In this document: in pieces, positions 1 through 10,870 of the stretch | Position numbering within the stretch: the first letter of the stretch is position 1 | Layout: the number at the start of each line of letters is the position of its first letter | From: Cyanobacteria bacterium P01_A01_bin.123 | GTDB lineage: Bacteria > Cyanobacteriota > Cyanobacteriia > Phormidesmidales > Phormidesmidaceae | DNA length: 10,870 nucleotides | Direction of reading: 5' to 3' | Assembly (NCBI GenBank): GCA_039815185.1 | Contig: JBCBZT010000106.1 | Location: forward strand, 1 to 10,870 | The notes under the pieces: model-generated | The model's input: only the letters and a program-made list of their open reading frames with translations | Databases searched by the model: none | What the model was told of the DNA's origin: nothing | Translations under genes and position numbers: made by a program

Positions 1-2160
1 ACCTTGGCTAGAGGACCCAAAACAACCACTTGGATTTGGGATCTTCACGCTGACGCTCACGACTTTGATAGTCACACCAGTGACTTAGAGGACATTTCTC
101 GTAAGATTTTTAGCGCTCACTTTGGCCATTTGGCCATCGTGTTCATATGGCTGAGTGGCATGTATTACCATGGCGCTCGGTTTTCTAACTATGAAGCTTG
201 GTTGGCGGATCCCGTCAATATTCACCCCAGTGCTCAGGTGGTTTGGCCTATTTTTGGTCAAGAGATCCTGAACGGTGAAGTTGGCGGCGGTTTCCAAGGT
301 ATTCAAATCACGTCTGGTTTATTCCAGATGTGGAGAGCATCTGGTTTCACCAACTCTTTCCAGCTTTTGTGTACCGCCATCGGTGCCCTGGTAATGGCTG
401 GTTTGATGGTGAATGCTGGTGTATTCCACTACCACATCAAGGCTCCTAAGCTTGAGTGGTTCCAGAATGTGGAATCCATGATGAATCACCACTTAGCTGG
501 CTTGTTCGGCTTAGGTTCACTAGGTTGGGCCGGTCACCTAATTCATGTATCCCTTCCTACTAATAAGCTGCTTGATGCAGGCGTGGCGATCAAGGATATT
601 CCTTTGCCCCACGAGTTCATCCTGGATAAGGCACTGATTGCAGACTTATATCCAAGTTTTGCTGAAGGGATCAAGCCATTCTTCACCCTCAATTGGGGTG
701 TGTACTCTGACATCTTGACCTTCAAAGGTGGTCTCAACCCCGTTACGGGTGGCCTTTGGATGACTGATATTGCCCATCACCATGTGGCGATCGCAGTGAT
801 GTTCATCTTTGCTGGCCACATGTACCGCACCAACTGGGGTATCGGCCATAGCATGAAGGAGATCCTAGAAGGTCAAAAGGGCGATCCGTTGCTCTTCCCT
901 GCTAAGAATGGCCATGATGGCTTGTTTGAGTTCTTGACCACCTCGTGGCATGCTCAGCTGGCAATCAACCTGGCTATGGGTGGTTCGGTGACGATTATCG
1001 TGGCTCAGCACATGTATGCGATGCCGCCATATCCTTACCTAGCAACTGATTACGCCACTCAGCTCTGCCTATTTACCCACCATATGTGGATTGGTGGATT
1101 CCTGATTGTGGGTGGTGCTGCTCACGGTGCGATCGCAATGGTCCGCGACTACGATCCGGCCATGCATGTCGACAACGTGCTCGACCGCGTTCTTCGCGCT
1201 CGTGATGCCATTATTTCCCACCTCAACTGGGTCTGTATTTTCCTCGGCTTCCATAGCTTTGGTCTATATATCCACAACGACACTATGCGTGCCTTGGGTC
1301 GTCCCCAAGACATGTTCTCTGACAGTGCAATTCAGCTGCAGCCAATCTTTGCCCAATGGGTGCAAAGTCTGCACACTTTAGCAGCTGGCGGTACCACGGC
1401 TCCCAATGCCATGGGTCCCACCAGTATTGCGTTTGGTGGCGATATGGTTGCCGTTGGCGGCAAAGTGGCGATGATGCCCATTGCCCTCGGCACGGCTGAC
1501 TTTATGGTGCATCACATCCATGCGTTCACCATTCACGTTACTGTCCTCATCCTGCTCAAGGGTGTGCTGTACTCCCGTAGTTCTCGTCTTATCCCCGATA
1601 AGAGCGAGCTGGGTTTCCGCTTCCCTTGCGACGGCCCCGGTCGTGGTGGCACCTGCCAGGTTTCTGGTTGGGACCACGTATTCCTCGGTCTGTTCTGGAT
1701 GTATAACTCCATCTCCATTGTGATTTTCCACTTTAGTTGGAAGATGCAGTCGGACGTATGGGGAACGGTTTCCGGGGGTTCGGTAGCTCACCCGGCGGGT
1801 GGTAATTTCGCCACGAGTGCGATTACTATCAACGGCTGGCTCCGTGACTTCCTTTGGGCACAGGCTTCTCAAGTTATCAACTCCTACGGTTCGGCTCTGT
1901 CCGCCTACGGTTTGATGTTCTTGGCCGCTCACTTTATCTGGGCGTTTAGTCTGATGTTCCTGTTCAGTGGCCGTGGCTACTGGCAAGAGCTGATTGAGTC
2001 CATCGTTTGGGCCCACAATAAGCTCAAGGTCGCTCCTGCAATCCAACCTCGCGCACTGAGCATTACTCAGGGTCGTGCAGTTGGCGTAGCTCACTACCTC
2101 CTCGGCGGTATTGCTACAACTTGGGCGTTCTTCCATGCTCGAATTCTCTCGTTAGGCTAG
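1..2160 (+). CDS. psaA: Photosystem I P700 chlorophyll a apoprotein A1 (5'-truncated by the window edge)
   Basis: Frame is open from base 1 ([13 protein letters not shown]...), so the TTG at 4 is not the real start. Contains HDFDSHT, the FX motif [12 protein letters not shown] (1621-1656), the P700/A0/A1 region [24 protein letters not shown] and C-terminal [10 protein letters not shown]. Stop TAG ends at 2160. Confidence 0.99.
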
Positions 2161-2163
2161 CAG

Positions 2164-2168
2164 GGAGG
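2164..2168 (+). promoter_or_regulatory. Shine-Dalgarno-like GGAGG in the 23-bp psaA-psaB spacer
   Basis: GGAGG lies 15 nt before the psaB ATG, which is longer than optimal spacing. The short spacer fits psaAB co-transcription. Confidence 0.5.
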
Positions 2169-2183
2169 ACTTAATAGAACACT

Positions 2184-4397
2184 ATGGCAACTAAATTTCC
2201 AAAATTTAGCCAAGATCTCGCACAGGATCCAACTACGCGTCGGATCTGGTACGGGATTGCCACTTCCCACGACTTTGAAAGCCACGATGGCATGACGGAA
2301 GAAAATCTTTATCAAAAGATTTTTGCTTCCCACTTTGGTCATCTGGCAGTCATCTTCCTCTGGGTGTCTGGCAACCTGTTCCACGTAGCTTGGCAAGGTA
2401 ACTTTGAGCAGTGGATTCAAGACCCTCTCAACGTTAAACCCATCGCCCATGCGATTTGGGATCCTCACTTTGGCCAGAATGCGGTGGATGCGTTCACCCA
2501 GGCTGGTGCTACCGGCCCCGTTAACGTCGCGTTTTCTGGGGTTTACCACTGGTGGTACACCATTGGTATGCGGACCAACGGCGACCTCTATGCGGCGTCC
2601 TTGTTCTTGCTGGTGCTGTCCTCAATCTTCCTGCTTGCAGGTTGGTTGCACCTACAGCCCAAGTTTCGTCCCAGCCTGTCCTGGTTCAAGAATGCTGAGT
2701 CTCGCCTAAACCACCACCTAGCTGGTTTGTTTGGTGTTAGCTCCCTGGCTTGGACGGGTCACCTGGTACACGTTGCAATCCCCGAGTCTCGCGGTGTACA
2801 CGTTGGTTGGGATAACTTCCTAACGGTTTCGCCTCACCCCGCTGGCTTGGCCCCCTTCTTTACCGGAAACTGGGGTGTGTACGCCCAGAGCCCTGACACG
2901 GCTAGTCATGTGTTTGGGACCTCTGAGGGTGCAGGTACTGCAATTTTGACCTTCTTAGGCGGCTTCCATCCTCAGACTGAGTCCCTGTGGCTCACTGACA
3001 TGGCTCACCACCACCTAGCCATTGCGGTCATCTTTATCATTGCTGGCCACATGTACCGGACTAACTTCGGTATTGGTCACAGCATTAAGGAGATCCTCAA
3101 CGCTCACCAGCCTCCTGCTGGTGGTCTGGGTGAAGGTCACAAGGGTTTGTATGACACGCTCAACAACTCCCTGCACTTCCAGCTAGCGCTGGCCCTGGCT
3201 TCCCTGGGTGTGATCACCTCCCTGGTTGCTCAGCACATGTATGCGTTGCCTCCCTATGCCTTTATGGCTCGGGACTACACCACCATGGCTGCGCTTTACA
3301 CCCACCACCAGTACATCGCTGGCTTCATCATGATGGGTGCCTTTGCCCACGGTGCGATCTTCTTGATTCGCGACTACGATCCGGCTGCGAATGCTAACAA
3401 TGTGTTGGCTCGTATTTTGGATCACAAAGAAGCGATCATCTCTCACCTGAGCTGGGTATCTCTGTTCCTCGGTTTCCACACCCTGGGTCTCTACGTCCAC
3501 AACGATGTGGTAGTTGCCTTTGGTACTCCTGAGAAGCAGATCCTGGTTGAGCCTGTGTTTGCTCAGTGGGTGCAGGCGGCGTCTGGTAAGGCCCTCTATG
3601 GCTTTGATACGCTGCTATCCAACCCTGACAGTGTGGCATTTACGGCATTCCCCAACTATGGAAATGTCTGGCTACCGGGCTGGTTAGAGGCTATCAACAG
3701 TGGAACCAACTCTCTGTTCTTGGCCATTGGTCCTGGTGACTTCCTAGTTCACCATGCGATCGCACTGGGTCTTCACACCACCACTTTGATCTTGGTCAAG
3801 GGTGCGTTGGATGCCCGTGGTTCCAAGCTAATGCCCGACAAGAAGGACTTTGGCTACAGCTTCCCCTGTGACGGCCCCGGTCGTGGCGGTACTTGCGACA
3901 TCTCTGCATGGGATTCCTTCTACCTGGCCATGTTCTGGATGCTGAATACCATTGGCTGGCTGACCTTCTACTGGCACTGGAAACACTTGGCGATCTGGTC
4001 TGGGAACGTAGCGCAGTTTAACAACAGCTCTACTCATCTGATGGGTTGGTTCCGTGACTATCTGTGGTTGAACTCTTCCCAGCTGATTAACGGGTACAAC
4101 TCGTACGGTATGAACAACCTGGCGGTTTGGGCTTGGATGTTCCTCTTTGGACACCTGGTTTGGGCCACTGGCTTCATGTTCCTCATCTCTTGGCGGGGTT
4201 ACTGGCAAGAGCTGATCGAGACCATCGTTTGGGCGCATGAGCGTACTCCTCTAGCTAACCTGATTAGCTGGAAGGACAAGCCGGTTGCTCTATCCATCGT
4301 TCAGGCTCGTTTGGTTGGTTTAGCTCACTTTACGGTGGGATATGTCCTGACCTATGCGGCCTTCCTGATAGCATCAACGTCTGGGCGATTTGGCTAG
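2184..4397 (+). CDS. psaB: Photosystem I P700 chlorophyll a apoprotein A2
   Basis: 737 aa. Canonical N-terminus [24 protein letters not shown] motif [18 protein letters not shown], and [25 protein letters not shown]. Lies directly downstream of psaA. Confidence 0.99.
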
Positions 4398-5565: not shown

Positions 5566-5640
5566 AACACTCATATTATTTTGACCCACACCCCTCTTAC
5601 CCCATTCATAGGATTTAGCGATCGCACCCCTAATTTCTAC

Positions 5641-5669
5641 TTGACCACAGCGAACCTGTGGTTTACTCT
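5641..5669 (+). promoter_or_regulatory. Sigma70-type promoter with a palindromic operator-like site in the spacer
   Basis: TTGACC (5641-5646)-N17-TACTCT (5664-5669). The palindrome ACCACAG-cgaac-CTGTGGT (5644-5662) overlaps the -35 and fills the spacer. Confidence 0.65.
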
Positions 5670-5675
5670 TTCTTC

Positions 5676-5790
5676 AAGGCTGTAATTTGCGTTGTGGCCT
5701 TAACTCAGAACTCAATATCTGGCACTGCTAGCAGGTGCATCCAACACCCACTAGCAGCTACTCCCAAACTGAGTAAGCAGTTCGGCAGCT
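5676..5790 (+). ncRNA. Putative structured 5' leader RNA (multi-hairpin)
   Basis: Hairpin 5676-5701 has 11 bp including 4 G-U pairs and starts at the predicted TSS. Hairpin 5725-5757 is CTGCTAG-ca-GGTG-catccaa-CACC-ca-CTAGCAG. ACTCAG (5703-5708) can pair with CTGAGT (5769-5774) to enclose it. Confidence 0.5.
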
Positions 5791-5902
5791 TTGGTCATTA
5801 TGCCTGAGCCACCGCGATTTGCACACATTTTGCGGAGGCGCTGGCTGTTGGGTTCTGGTCACCCTTGCCCCGCTGGGGCTACACTATCTGGAGACCAGAC
5901 CC

Positions 5903-6148
5903 ATGTTTCAAGACTTTACCCAGGGCGCAGGCGCGTCCAATCTGCCGCCTATCGTGCCATCGCTCCCCGAGTATGAGTACGAAACCGTCAACCACACGCT
6001 GTTCGGCAGCCTGACGGCGATACGTAACACCATTCAACTGCTCCACAAGCTCAACTACTCTGAGCCCAACGACTGGAGCAAACCCCTACCCACCGGTCGA
6101 GCCAACGAAATGATGGCCATTTTGACCAGACGGGTGAGGGTAAATTAA
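5903..6148 (+). CDS. Small hypothetical protein (81 aa), resembling a conserved cyanobacterial family
   Basis: ATG at 5903 with GGAG at 5890-5893 is preferred over the TTG at 5819. The C-terminal pattern HTLFGS..AI.NTI..LH.LNY.E..DWS.PLPT....E.MAIL.R resembles an uncharacterised small-protein family I recall from filamentous cyanobacteria (not verified by search). Confidence 0.8.
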   Translation: MFQDFTQGAGASNLPPIVPSLPEYEYETVNHTLFGSLTAIRNTIQLLHKLNYSEPNDWSKPLPTGRANEMMAILTRRVRVN

Positions 6149-9005: not shown

Positions 9006-10870
9006 TTACGTTTGCTCATCATCACCATTAGAAGTGGCATCCCGCATATTCACCTGACGTTCTTTGAGATATCTGACTCTTTCTAGAGATGGAGCGCTGC
9101 CAAGGGTAAGACTCTCAAAAACTGTGATGTTCTCTGGCTCCTCAAAAAAATCTGGATCAAACAGATGTAGAATCCTCCCTGCATAGAACTCCATACATTT
9201 TTTTTCAAAGATCTTTGATCGTAAAGAAGCTATCTGCGCTATGGGTTCAGACGTATTGCGAACAGGTTTTTTCTGAGCATCTCGAAAAAGATCGGCGCAG
9301 CGTAAACAGTTTAGAATCTCATTCACCTTTCTTCTCGACAGGTTGGATTCTGTCTGGACGCTGTCACGAAGACTTTTTGTAATGTCGTTAAAGCTGATAG
9401 TAGATCCGTCCAAGCCTTTAAATAATTTGATTAGTTCGTTAAACACAAATTTTCTAGACTCTGGTGCCAGATTAAGGTTTCCTTTTTTGAAAAAGGTCTC
9501 AAGGCTGTCATCGTCGGATGCTGCCGCAGCTTCTTTTCCAGCCTCTTCCTCTTCCTCACCATTATCGACTAAAGATTGAGAAGCTCCGTGGGTCTCTATG
9601 AGACTCTTTATCCGATCCAAAAAGTTATTCTGGTCTGCAACCGTAATGTCCCAGTGATGAGTCCGAATGTGAGCCTCTGCTTCATCAATATCAAGCACAA
9701 CAAAAATAGCGTTGTCGGAGTTAAGGTCTAACCGTTGACCATGGGTATTAAACTTTTCTATGCCTGCATGATATTGCTGACCCGCCTTACACTCAATTAG
9801 CAGCGGCTTCCCATTGACCAGAAAGAACAAATCGAGTTCCGATAAATCTCCATTTTCATATGCGATTTTCGGATTTCTAAGATACTGGTAGTCAACGCCT
9901 TCTGAGTCAAACAGTTCGACTACTTTGTCATAAATAAAGCGCTCAAACCAACCGCCATCAAAAAAACCTTGTATATCGGGGCGATTGTAGGAATCGGCTA
10001 TGATGAAGTCTGAAGATTCTTTATTTTTAATTAGCCTGCCGTTTAACAAATAATCGCATGATTTGAGTTTTTTAATATATTGGTTATGGATACGTTTAGC
10101 GCGTGCGTCATAGTCTCGTAGGTCAAACCGGGTTCTCTTTCCTACGCTGCTTCTCAACTTTCGATGAAACCCTTTAAGAATGGCATAATTATCGCCAAGA
10201 TAAAGAGACAGTTCATCTAATAAGCCGTCAATTTTAGGATCGGGTTCATAATAGTTTTGAACTTTAATATTTTTACCTTTGAACCACTCCAACACTCGCT
10301 GAGCCGTCTTATCTTCTAAAATTTCTTCTTGATCTGTCGTAGCTGGTTCTTCGATATTATTAAAAGTCTCTTGATCGTTGCCAGGGAGAGCTGGTTCAGT
10401 AGTCAAATTTGCCTGGTTTTCTAATTCTCTCGAAGCTGTCTCAATACGATCAGCATCATTAGAAATGTTATCGTCAGGGCTGACTGAGTTTCTATTAATC
10501 TTTAATTCGAGCTCTGCTAACTTTGTCTGGATACCGTTAATTTCATCCGAGTTTAATGCTGGCTGACTGGAATGTGAACCATCTCTAAGTTCAGTCAGCC
10601 TTGTTTGGTGCTGTTTGCTCGCCAGGAAAACTTTTTCGACGTTTTTTCTATTTTGGGCCGTTACAGCTGTCAGACTGTTTACTTTTATTTGATGTGCGTT
10701 ATTGATTTTTTGTTGCTTAGCCATAAGGTGTCTAAGCCGTCTATCTTGTTGGACATGTCCGGCAGCTACGGCTGCACCGGCCGCCGCGCCTGTTATTGCC
10801 CCTTTTGCTTGACCTGGCATCAACCAAAAGCCAGCTGAACCAAAGAGAATACTTGAAACTAAAACGGTTA
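9006..10870 (-). CDS. Probable membrane-anchored coiled-coil protein with Card1/DUF1887-like PD-(D/E)xK endonuclease domain (5'-truncated by the window edge)
   Basis: The frame stays open past 10823 to the window end, adding hydrophobic TVLVSSILFGSAGFWL. A coiled-coil-like and acidic linker follows, then the nuclease-like core GGWFERF...NPKI...ELDLFFLVNGKPLLIECKAG, and a further C-terminal domain. Confidence 0.8.
   Translation of the reverse strand, partial: TVLVSSILFGSAGFWLMPGQAKGAITGAAAGAAVAAGHVQQDRRLRHLMAKQQKINNAHQIKVNSLTAVTAQNRKNVEKVFLASKQHQTRLTELRDGSHSSQPALNSDEINGIQTKLAELELKINRNSVSPDDNISNDADRIETASRELENQANLTTEPALPGNDQETFNNIEEPATTDQEEILEDKTAQRVLEWFKGKNIKVQNYYEPDPKIDGLLDELSLYLGDNYAILKGFHRKLRSSVGKRTRFDLRDYDARAKRIHNQYIKKLKSCDYLLNGRLIKNKESSDFIIADSYNRPDIQGFFDGGWFERFIYDKVVELFDSEGVDYQYLRNPKIAYENGDLSELDLFFLVNGKPLLIECKAGQQYHAGIEKFNTHGQRLDLNSDNAIFVVLDIDEAEAHIRTHHWDITVADQNNFLDRIKSLIETHGASQSLVDNGEEEEEAGKEAAAASDDDSLETFFKKGNLNLAPESRKFVFNELIKLFKGLDGSTISFNDITKSLRDSVQTESNLSRRKVNEILNCLRCADLFRDAQKKPVRNTSEPIAQIASLRSKIFEKKCMEFYAGRILHLFDPDFFEEPENITVFESLTLGSAPSLERVRYLKERQVNMRDATSNGDDEQT

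What the first reader, a model, noticed from the sequence alone, without database searches (positions are those of the whole stretch)
5641..6148. Self-contained module: promoter, long structured RNA leader and 81-aa protein of unknown function
Seen: a TTGACC-N17-TACTCT promoter and a predicted TSS near 5676 that coincides with the first base of an 11-bp stem. That stem has four G-U pairs, so it folds well only as plus-strand RNA. A second long stem capped by GGTG-N7-CACC lies at 5725-5757. CTGAGT (5769-5774) can pair either with ACTCAG (5703-5708) or within a local hairpin CCAAACTG/CAGTTCGG (5764-5785), and the two are mutually exclusive. The leader runs about 227 nt before GGAG-N9-ATG. Inference: this much control over a tiny gene suggests an undescribed cis-regulatory RNA, or a type I toxin-antitoxin-like or antisense-controlled cassette. 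The GGTG..CACC stem reminds me of leaders upstream of SymE-like and phage genes (unverified).
Basis: partly seen in the sequence, partly recalled or inferred. Interest (0 to 1): 0.72.

Follow-up and report, generated by a model that had tools for sequence, protein, structure and literature searches.

The report
Antisense-RNA-controlled multicopy cyanobacterial gene cassette
A tiny gene of unknown function, repeated many times in filamentous cyanobacteria, carries a folded leader that hides its ribosome-binding site and most likely encodes its own small silencing RNA on the opposite strand, the layout of a toxin-antitoxin pair, although neither the RNA nor any toxicity has been measured.

Summary
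The module is real, but the central hairpins are best read on the opposite strand. Relatives show a promoter-to-stop cassette in unrelated neighbourhoods. A leader model finds it in 46 of 151 cyanobacterial genomes; one genome gave 22 loci. Wobble pairs switch strand along the leader: the two central hairpins (5724-5789) favour the minus strand, the flanking helices the plus strand. A conserved minus-strand -10 box (5797-5802) would start a ~75-nt two-hairpin antisense RNA near 5790. Its loops differ between copies and it weakly resembles Rfam SymR (29-31 bits, cut-off 61). On the mRNA, segment B (5847-5863) pairs either with upstream A (5706-5716) or with the ribosome-site segment C (5890-5902), with three-way covariation. 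The 81-aa protein is soluble, under purifying selection, predicted to dimerise, and has no family or fold match. Best reading: a type I toxin-antitoxin-like cassette silenced from a distance, as in pSK41 rep control. Antisense control about 0.75; toxicity about 0.45 and untested. No strand-specific RNA data were available.

The parts
5641..5669 (+). Sense sigma70-type promoter: -35 TTGACC (5641-5646), 17 nt, -10 TACTCT (5664-5669); +1 inferred near 5676
   Evidence: Sequence; top-scoring plus-strand site at this position in 44 of 44 leaders. TSS not measured.
5676..5701 (+). P1, 5' stem-loop of the mRNA (11 bp, 4 G-U); variable among homologues
   Evidence: (47 G-U pairs on plus, 17 on minus across 44 leaders)
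5706..5716 (+). Segment A (anti-anti-SD); pairs long-range with B
   Evidence: 94% of cells paired, 6 of 11 pairs compensatory, 0 of 500 shuffles; found unprompted by RNAalifold
5716..5790 (-). Predicted ~75-nt cis-antisense RNA, 5' end near 5790, two adjacent hairpins; 3' end uncertain
   Evidence: -40.1 kcal/mol, z -5.7; minus-strand z lower in 43 of 44 leaders; same two-hairpin fold in the 44 of 87 copies printed. Not detected as RNA.
5724..5758 (-).
   Evidence: 94.9% paired on minus, 85.2% on plus; 11 of 13 pairs compensatory
5760..5789 (-). Hairpin H2, variable loop about 5772-5777
   Evidence: 36 A-C (G-U on minus) against 6 G-U cells on plus in 87 copies
5797..5824 (-). Predicted antisense promoter: -35 GTGCAA (5824-5819), 16 nt, -10 CATAAT (5802-5797)
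   Evidence: Top-ranked minus-strand site falls in this 18-nt slot in 25 of 44 leaders; -10-type motif in 86 of 87 copies, 23 in shuffles, 58 on the plus strand
5807..5846 (+). Hairpin H4 of the mRNA; its loop holds the antisense -35 box
   Evidence: 91.9% paired, 7 of 10 pairs compensatory; 97 G-U against 18 A-C cells
5847..5863 (+). Segment B (anti-SD); pairs with A or with C, mutually exclusive
   Evidence: (I10, I22)
5867..5879 (+). Small optional hairpin inside the B:C helix; absent or much longer in homologues
5890..5902 (+). Segment C with Shine-Dalgarno GGAG (5890-5893)
   Evidence: B:C core 93.7% paired, 2 of 7 pairs compensatory; -27 kcal/mol, z -3.2
5903..6148 (+). 81-aa soluble protein; low-confidence N-terminal ~20 aa, beta-alpha-beta-beta core; predicted homodimer
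   Evidence: median dN/dS 0.14, no stop in 81 of 81 cores; no family match

Best explanation
A stand-alone two-gene cassette: a small protein gene and a cis-encoded antisense RNA that keeps it off. SUPPORTED BY COMPARATIVE DATA: two overlapping convergent transcription units; a two-hairpin minus-strand RNA with copy-specific loops; an mRNA switch in which B pairs with A or with the ribosome-site segment C. INFERRED: while the mRNA is being made, A:B forms first and leaves the ribosome site free for a short time; the finished leader relaxes to B:C (off). The antisense RNA meets H1/H2 of the nascent mRNA by loop-loop kissing, extends into a duplex that reaches A or is cut by RNase III, and so removes the translatable window from about 100 nt upstream. 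Different loops keep the many copies from cross-reacting. COMMITTED BUT UNTESTED (about 0.45): the protein inhibits growth, so each copy is a type I toxin-antitoxin addiction or stress module derived from a mobile-element early gene.
For: Strand switch of wobble pairs in 27 copies outside the training set, found with a plus-strand model: H1 24 A-C vs 1 G-U, H2 16 vs 1, A:B 3 vs 25, H4 1 vs 35. Composition-controlled z lower on minus for H1+H2 in 43 of 44, but for H4 in 7 and B:C in 10 of 44. Minus -10 box conserved with a variable middle. Three-way covariation at 5708/5855/5898: G-C-G 31, A-T-A 10, G-T-A 2 of 43. A:B probability above 0.5 in 72 of 80 nascent leaders; in full-length leaders A:B 23 and B:C (above 0.4) 47 of 80; window 1.00 nascent, then 0.01 A:B and 0.68 B:C. 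All 60 loop pairs distinct; loop identity 0.69 and 0.63 against 0.77 at fourfold sites in the 9 closest pairs. SymR matches lie on the predicted antisense strand and span. Leaderless relatives often sit beside an HTH or RHH gene (19 of 27 hand-picked candidates), some on plasmids or near integrases. 140 neighbouring ORFs fall into 104 clusters. Homodimer model 0.85 against best control 0.01, pLDDT 91, runs agree in all contacts; this mark was reached by 20 of 30 solved dimers and 1 of 23 monomers.
Against: No RNA from either strand was observed. The window's own antisense promoter is weak (score 4.4, spacer 16, C at -12) and the strict scan lists neither it nor a minus-strand terminator at H1. 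The loose -10 motif also occurs on the plus strand in 58 of 87 copies. Blocking only H1-H2 did not break A:B in nascent leaders (72 of 80 unchanged), so the RNA must reach A or act by cleavage. In many distant copies (such as L104, L107, L109, L110, L147, L151, L153) B:C does not cover the ribosome site in the model. The U-turn motif is not clearly strand-biased in H1 loops (22 minus, 18 plus of 60). The window copy itself gives no SymR match, and SymR hits at E<=1 also occur in 6 of 14 control genomes. Nothing shows toxicity: no transmembrane segment, no invariant column in 114 homologues, no fold match above Z 4.7. Homologues are related, so the counts are not independent.
Confidence: 0.7

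Rival explanations
1. Same antisense control, but the protein is not a toxin: it is a dosage-limited regulator or accessory factor of mobile-element origin (antirepressor-like or early gene) whose cassette was kept and multiplied on the chromosome. This shares the RNA mechanism with the best reading and differs only in what the protein does.
For: Leaderless relatives beside HTH/RHH genes on plasmids, one between a ParG-like gene and a replication gene; soluble predicted dimer; plasmid countertranscripts control non-toxic Rep proteins (PMC5703833 passages).
Against: Cassettes with the leader have no conserved partner gene; one distant hit in viral contigs and none in phage records; hard to see why up to 22 copies of a neutral factor stay intact.
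Confidence: 0.3
2. The leader is a ligand- or protein-sensing cis element (riboswitch-like): H1, H2 and H4 form a sensor closed by A:B, and B:C is its expression platform; no antisense RNA exists.
For: A:B closes a multi-stem junction with 29 of 35 pairs compensatory; mutually exclusive anti-SD pairing is typical of translational riboswitches (established knowledge); conserved single-stranded linker letters.
Against: Loops are the least conserved part; H1 and H2 carry mismatches on plus that are wobble pairs on minus; the conserved junction motif reads as a minus-strand -10 box; no metabolic gene is controlled; no Rfam cis-regulatory match in the leader above chance level.
Confidence: 0.08
3. 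The minus-strand RNA exists but acts in trans or on the protein: its two variable loops address other RNAs, or it binds the dimer directly as in type III toxin-antitoxin pairs.
For: Stable two-hairpin fold with variable loops; the protein core resembles half of a ferredoxin-like fold found in many nucleic-acid binders, only at Z<=4.7.
Against: Loop variation is expected for cis-antisense specificity (AapA/IsoA passages); the A/B/C switch is explained by cis action; many protein relatives lack the RNA.
Confidence: 0.1
4. The minus-strand hairpins are a terminator for convergent transcription or a DNA-level feature of a small mobile repeat, not a gene.
For: Cassettes sit in unrelated contexts with an abrupt end at the stop codon; G-U and G-T wobbles also fit single-stranded DNA.
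Against: A conserved -10 box lies about 7-9 nt before the first hairpin; no terminal repeats were evident and DNA after the stop codon is not conserved; H4 and B:C favour the other strand.
Confidence: 0.06
5. A P1 c4 / P4 CI-type system in which a processed sense-strand RNA pairs through its loops with sites in the same transcript.
For: Cloverleaf-like plus-strand fold with variable loops.
Against: An exact same-strand complement of the H1 loop was found in 2 of 60 loci against 6.1 expected; no C4 Rfam match.
Confidence: 0.02

Closest known systems
SymR / symE of E. coli (Rfam RF01809; PMC1891008, abstract in listing and passages read)
   Same: About 75-nt cis-antisense RNA of two adjacent hairpins with a UUAGC-type linker (77 of 87 copies) and a GUG-loop-CAC 3' hairpin; full-length sub-threshold CM matches on the predicted strand in related copies; soluble small target protein.
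   Different: Scores 21-31 bits against a cut-off of 61, none for the window copy. The SymR promoter lies inside the symE ORF; here promoter and RNA lie about 100-190 nt upstream of the start and need the A/B/C switch. The protein is not AbrB-fold SymE. LexA control was not tested.
pSK41 RNAI / rep and pT181 RNAI / repC plasmid countertranscripts (PMC5703833, passages read)
   Same: ~83-nt two-stem-loop antisense RNA about 100 nt upstream of the translation start that favours a ribosome-site-hiding stem-loop; a 'pre-emptor' pairing equivalent to A:B.
   Different: The target here is an 81-aa protein, not a replication initiator; chromosomal, multicopy, cyanobacterial. Sequence homology was not tested.
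AapA / IsoA type I toxin-antitoxin modules of Helicobacter pylori (PMC5416894, passages read)
   Same: Small repeated chromosomal module; antisense RNA with two stem-loops against the 5' leader; loop sequence gives paralogue specificity.
   Different: AapA is a 30-aa peptide; the IsoA duplex masks the ribosome site directly; activation needs 3' processing and 5'-3' pairing, whereas here nothing after the stop codon is conserved.
MsoT1 / MsoA1 of Microcystis aeruginosa (PMC12390103, first ninth of the text read)
   Same: Presented as the first candidate type I system in cyanobacteria.
   Different: MsoT1 has predicted transmembrane helices; this protein has none. The sequences were not compared.

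Membership tests
Type I toxin-antitoxin system | Antisense RNA with its own promoter, complementary to the toxin mRNA | tested here: inconclusive
   Strongly predicted by strand signature and promoter conservation; no strand-specific RNA data (one search held only contigs).
Type I toxin-antitoxin system | Protein inhibits growth or kills | not testable with these tools
   Needs expression in a host; no family or fold clue.
Type I toxin-antitoxin system | Antisense RNA prevents toxin synthesis | not testable with these tools
   Only folding models, which support an indirect route in most close copies and not in many distant ones.
Type I toxin-antitoxin system (classical membrane toxins) | Short hydrophobic peptide with a transmembrane helix | tested here: not met
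   Highest 19-residue hydropathy 0.61, GRAVY -0.38; beta-alpha-beta-beta model.
SymR (RF01809) | Score at or above the 61-bit gathering threshold | tested here: not met
   Best 31.1 bits; no match in the window copy; 0 of 61 genomes over cut-off.
SymR (RF01809) | Two adjacent hairpins, ~77 nt, antisense to the leader of a small gene | tested here: met
   model positions 1-77 aligned in L139, L153, L162. Met as a prediction, not as a measured RNA.
SymR / symE | Antisense promoter lies inside the target ORF | tested here: not met
   Predicted promoter 5797-5824 ends about 80 nt before the ATG at 5903; the SymR arrangement is from PMC1891008.
SymE toxin | AbrB-superfamily fold and SymE family match | tested here: not met
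   No SymE match among Pfam hits of 114 homologues at E<=0.05; predicted topology is beta-alpha-beta-beta with a beta1-beta1 dimer.
Plasmid countertranscript copy control (pSK41/pT181 type) | Leader with pre-emptor, anti-SD and SD in mutually exclusive pairing downstream of the antisense target | tested here: met
   for the window and close copies.
Plasmid countertranscript copy control (pSK41/pT181 type) | Controls a replication initiator on a plasmid | tested here: not met
   First ORF is this family in 25 of 29 model-found loci; leader DNA has no match in plasmid records; the window lies behind psaA-psaB.
P1 c4 / P4 CI antisense RNA | Loops complementary to sites on the same transcript | tested here: not met
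   2 of 60 loci against 6.1 by chance for the H1 loop.
Riboswitch | Conserved loop or junction nucleotides forming a ligand pocket, upstream of functionally coherent genes | tested here: not met
   Loops hypervariable; one uncharacterised gene family downstream. Ligand binding itself cannot be tested here.

The most novel reading that the evidence does not exclude
This is a large, unrecognised family of type I toxin-antitoxin modules in cyanobacteria with a new soluble dimeric toxin. A SymR-related antitoxin has moved off the ribosome site and acts through a kinetic three-way switch, and each of up to dozens of copies per genome has a private two-loop code, which makes a natural library of orthogonal antisense translation switches that spread as selfish addiction units.
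Probability: 0.35. Interest if true: 0.82.

Novelty: new variant of a known kind. Interest (0 to 1): 0.66.

Why it matters
Type I toxin-antitoxin systems were reported from three phyla only, with one recent cyanobacterial candidate (PMC12390103, abstract). This cassette occurs in about three in ten sampled cyanobacterial genomes, in up to 19 or more copies, with no Rfam family for the RNA and no name for the protein. If the model holds, it joins a SymR-like RNA to pSK41-like remote control, adds a protein family of no known fold family to antisense-repressed genes, and offers many natural loop-specific switch pairs for cyanobacterial engineering. Each step can be tested with a reporter, a promoter mutation and a growth curve.

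Tried and rejected
Rfam on the window: nothing in the module at E<=1; on 5630-5930 only chance-level hits at E 2.1 and 8.6. Protein: no Pfam or NCBIfam match for the window protein; across 114 homologues no PHROG family in more than one member and no Pfam family in more than four, the only strong hit being one member with a nucleotidyltransferase part; PDB sequence best E 0.06; Foldseek no E<=0.001 in PDB or viral models; VIA-align best Z 4.7, generic half-ferredoxin matches including MinE, CutA and ACT domains, not taken as evidence; ESM Atlas returned only hypothetical cyanobacterial clusters; no longer fused forms, weak evidence. Phage records no match; viral contigs one 31% hit. Pairing of B with sequence after the stop codon (repeat I1) rejected because that DNA is not conserved. 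The palindrome in the sense promoter spacer is not evident in homologues. A U-turn bias in H1 loops was not found. RNA evidence: for related locus L107, 16 runs on record as RNA held parts; contigs of four runs cover leader and ORF, but contigs show neither strand nor ends, flanking repeats are covered too, and DNA carry-over is not excluded, so no conclusion. An antisense-RNA model found no credible match in 24 loci without the long leader (best 17 bits, partial) nor in four family f7 genomes. No empty site was identified among 40 relatives, as no genome matched both flanks. A natural tandem fusion (P0035) was not folded. Paper searches listed nothing that describes this family; the library lacks most subscription papers.

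Full report
Setting. The window is cyanobacterial: psaA and psaB fill 1-4397 (recognised from the translations), followed by a 249-aa ORF without family match, the module, a PEP-CTERM protein and a Ppx/GppA gene. It is contig C4 of genome G000.

Observation. The 241-nt leader folds better than shuffles on both strands, z -3.5 on plus and -4.2 on minus. The 5' stem is a plus-strand structure (-7.5 against -3.2 kcal/mol), but the two central hairpins are much better on the minus strand (-40.1, z -5.7, against -23.4, z -1.9).

A family of cassettes. The protein found 231 related stretches in species genomes; the best 80 were kept, 22 of them from Leptolyngbya cf. ectocarpi LEGE 11479. A profile of 114 homologues matched 37 of 301 genomes of the phylum, 1 to 17 matches each, 7 in G000; 733 proteins scored in the large collection, and every name shown among the best 120 was 'hypothetical' or 'uncharacterized'. 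Conservation starts just before the -35 box and ends at the stop codon. The 140 nearest ORFs of the 80 loci form 104 clusters; 94 of them were scanned and are a mix of housekeeping, nuclease, toxin-antitoxin and transposase genes. The coding core has median dN/dS 0.14 over 1304 pairs and no stop in 81 of 81 copies. A covariance model of the leader (38 sequences) matched 46 of 151 genomes of the class, up to the 19 candidates scored per genome, and a second copy in G000. In 25 of 29 loci returned, the first ORF belongs to the family; one of the four misses (L160) precedes a different 212-aa ORF.

The mRNA switch. Of the 80 loci, 59 had a usable leader; with the window that makes 60, reduced to 44 below 90% identity; 43 were aligned to the ATG. 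RNAalifold recovered a long-range helix between A (5706-5716) and B: 94% of cells paired, 6 of 11 pairs compensatory, 0 of 500 shuffles, slid controls 16-54%. B also pairs with C, which holds the Shine-Dalgarno sequence: 94% paired but only 2 of 7 pairs compensatory. One position changes in all three segments together: G-C-G in 31, A-T-A in 10, G-T-A in 2; another changes three-way in one copy. In folding models of the 80 of 87 copies with a family ORF, A:B exceeds 0.5 in 72 leaders cut just after B; at full length A:B exceeds 0.5 in 23 and B:C exceeds 0.4 in 47. For the window A:B goes from 1.00 to 0.01 and B:C is 0.68. Five of the 80 had an upstream ATG picked by the script, and in many distant copies B does not pair over the ribosome site, so occlusion is not universal.

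The antisense RNA. After composition control, H1+H2 has the lower z on the minus strand in 43 of 44 leaders, H4 in only 7 and B:C in 10. H1 is 85% paired on plus and 95% on minus. In 27 copies outside the training set, found by a plus-strand model that penalises A-C, H1 has 24 A-C against 1 G-U cell and H2 16 against 1, while A:B has 3 against 25 and H4 1 against 35. Between H2 and H4 the minus strand has a -10-type hexamer in 86 of 87 copies (shuffles 23, plus strand 58), with variable middle letters, by eye 7-9 nt before the first hairpin, and an extended TG form in 13. With a recalled sigma70 matrix the best minus-strand site falls in this 18-nt slot in 25 of 44 leaders, where about 3 would be expected. 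In the window it reads GTGCAA-16-CATAAT and is weak. The predicted RNA runs from about 5790 to about 5716; its 3' end is uncertain, with no terminator call there. All 60 loop pairs differ. Among the 9 closest pairs the loops are 69% and 63% identical against 77% at fourfold sites; at 90-95% leader identity 51% and 50% against 62% (pairs were chosen on non-loop identity, which inflates the other leader columns but not the fourfold sites). The nearest relative, L001, differs from the window in both loops and by a compensatory pair in H1 (omits it).

Link to SymR. Rfam symR was the top family in two scans of related loci, full length and on the predicted antisense strand: 2 of 6 and 3 of 20 loci, 28.8-31.1 bits against a cut-off of 61. 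In five whole genomes the best four of six symR hits at E<=1 lie antisense inside modules. Hits at that level also occur in 6 of 14 control genomes; at E<=0.01 only the second G000 copy and the E. coli control remained among 61 genomes. The window copy has no hit. I read this as distant kinship or convergence, not membership.

The protein. AlphaFold2 gives a low-confidence N-terminus and a confident core of strand 25-35, helix 37-49, a short strand and strand 70-80. A two-copy model of residues 20-81 scored 0.85 against 0.01 for the best control, pLDDT 91, with strand 1 paired across the interface; 20 of 30 solved dimers and 1 of 23 monomers reached that mark. There is no transmembrane segment and no family or fold assignment. 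Relatives without the long leader often lie next to, mostly divergent from, a small DNA-binding gene: 19 of 27 candidates that I picked by eye from 63 upstream ORFs matched HTH or RHH families. Eleven plasmid records carry a relative, one between a ParG-like gene and a replication gene. So the family is paired with a putative repressing device in two different ways, which suggests a product that is costly when unchecked; this is inference.

Mechanism and comparison. The layout matches pSK41 RNAI, an ~83-nt two-stem-loop RNA about 100 nt upstream of the rep start that induces a ribosome-site-hiding hairpin, and the pT181 pre-emptor (PMC5703833, passages). Loop-encoded paralogue specificity matches AapA/IsoA (PMC5416894, passages). 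RNA size and build match SymR, whose promoter however lies inside symE (PMC1891008, passages). One gap remains: blocking H1-H2 alone did not break A:B in the model, so the RNA must extend into A, disturb the helix stacked on A:B, or trigger RNase III cleavage.

Novelty. Ten paper searches listed no description of the family. A 2026 screen of 202 cyanobacterial genomes was anchored on KEGG gene groups and states that it misses antisense RNAs overlapping genes (PMC12873609, abstract and passages); its supplements were not seen and could hold this motif by adjacency. Earlier notes of this scan describe SymR-like antisense RNAs before phage-satellite and nuclease genes in other genomes; they are unchecked, were read after my SymR hit, and concern RNAs that mostly cover the ribosome site directly. 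Look-ups by sequence returned nothing.

Verdict. Real and undescribed as far as searched; a new variant of cis-antisense control. Antisense-controlled cassette about 0.75, full switch model 0.7, toxin 0.45. Interest 0.66.

Noticed in passing
window 5644-5662: Perfect 7-bp inverted repeat with a 5-nt centre fills the sense promoter spacer (possible operator); shared with L001 but not evident in other homologues.
   Followed up: partly
L057, L078, L080, about 110-170 nt upstream of the ATG: The leader is interrupted at the same site, just after the predicted antisense start, by the same foreign sequence beginning GTGCG on the minus strand; this looks like a group II intron 5' end (label recalled, not tested).
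   Followed up: partly
L004, L020, L037, within about 0-95 nt of the ATG: The same foreign sequence, probably an insertion-element end, replaces the leader at three different points, separating the ORF from both promoters.
   Followed up: no
L160:1501-2400 (G002:C5): A full leader with antisense features precedes an unrelated 212-aa ORF without Pfam match: possible capture of the control cassette by another gene.
   Followed up: partly
L082, L083, L085, L086, L088, L124, L111: Relatives in family f7 genomes and on a Trichormus plasmid have a short leader with one hairpin and a variable 6-7-nt loop, sometimes duplicated in tandem; the antisense model does not match it.
   Followed up: partly
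L053, L072, L073, upstream of the module: A tyrosine integrase gene (integron-integrase-like by eye) lies directly upstream of three copies.
   Followed up: no
many of L001-L080, just after the stop codon: Different REP-like palindromic repeats follow the stop codon in many copies; a role in cassette mobility was not tested.
   Followed up: no
P0035 (163 aa): Natural tandem fusion of two family domains, consistent with the predicted homodimer.
   Followed up: no
L122:771-3504 (G141:C23): Two near-identical cassettes 2.4 kb apart with different loops; a HicA toxin gene lies just upstream of the second.
   Followed up: partly
window 9006-10823 (-): 605-aa protein with a weak Card1-like endonuclease domain (E 1.7e-4), possibly defence-related.
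   Followed up: no
window 1-4397: psaA-psaB pair; whether it is a standard or an alternative (far-red or low-light) copy was not examined.
   Followed up: no
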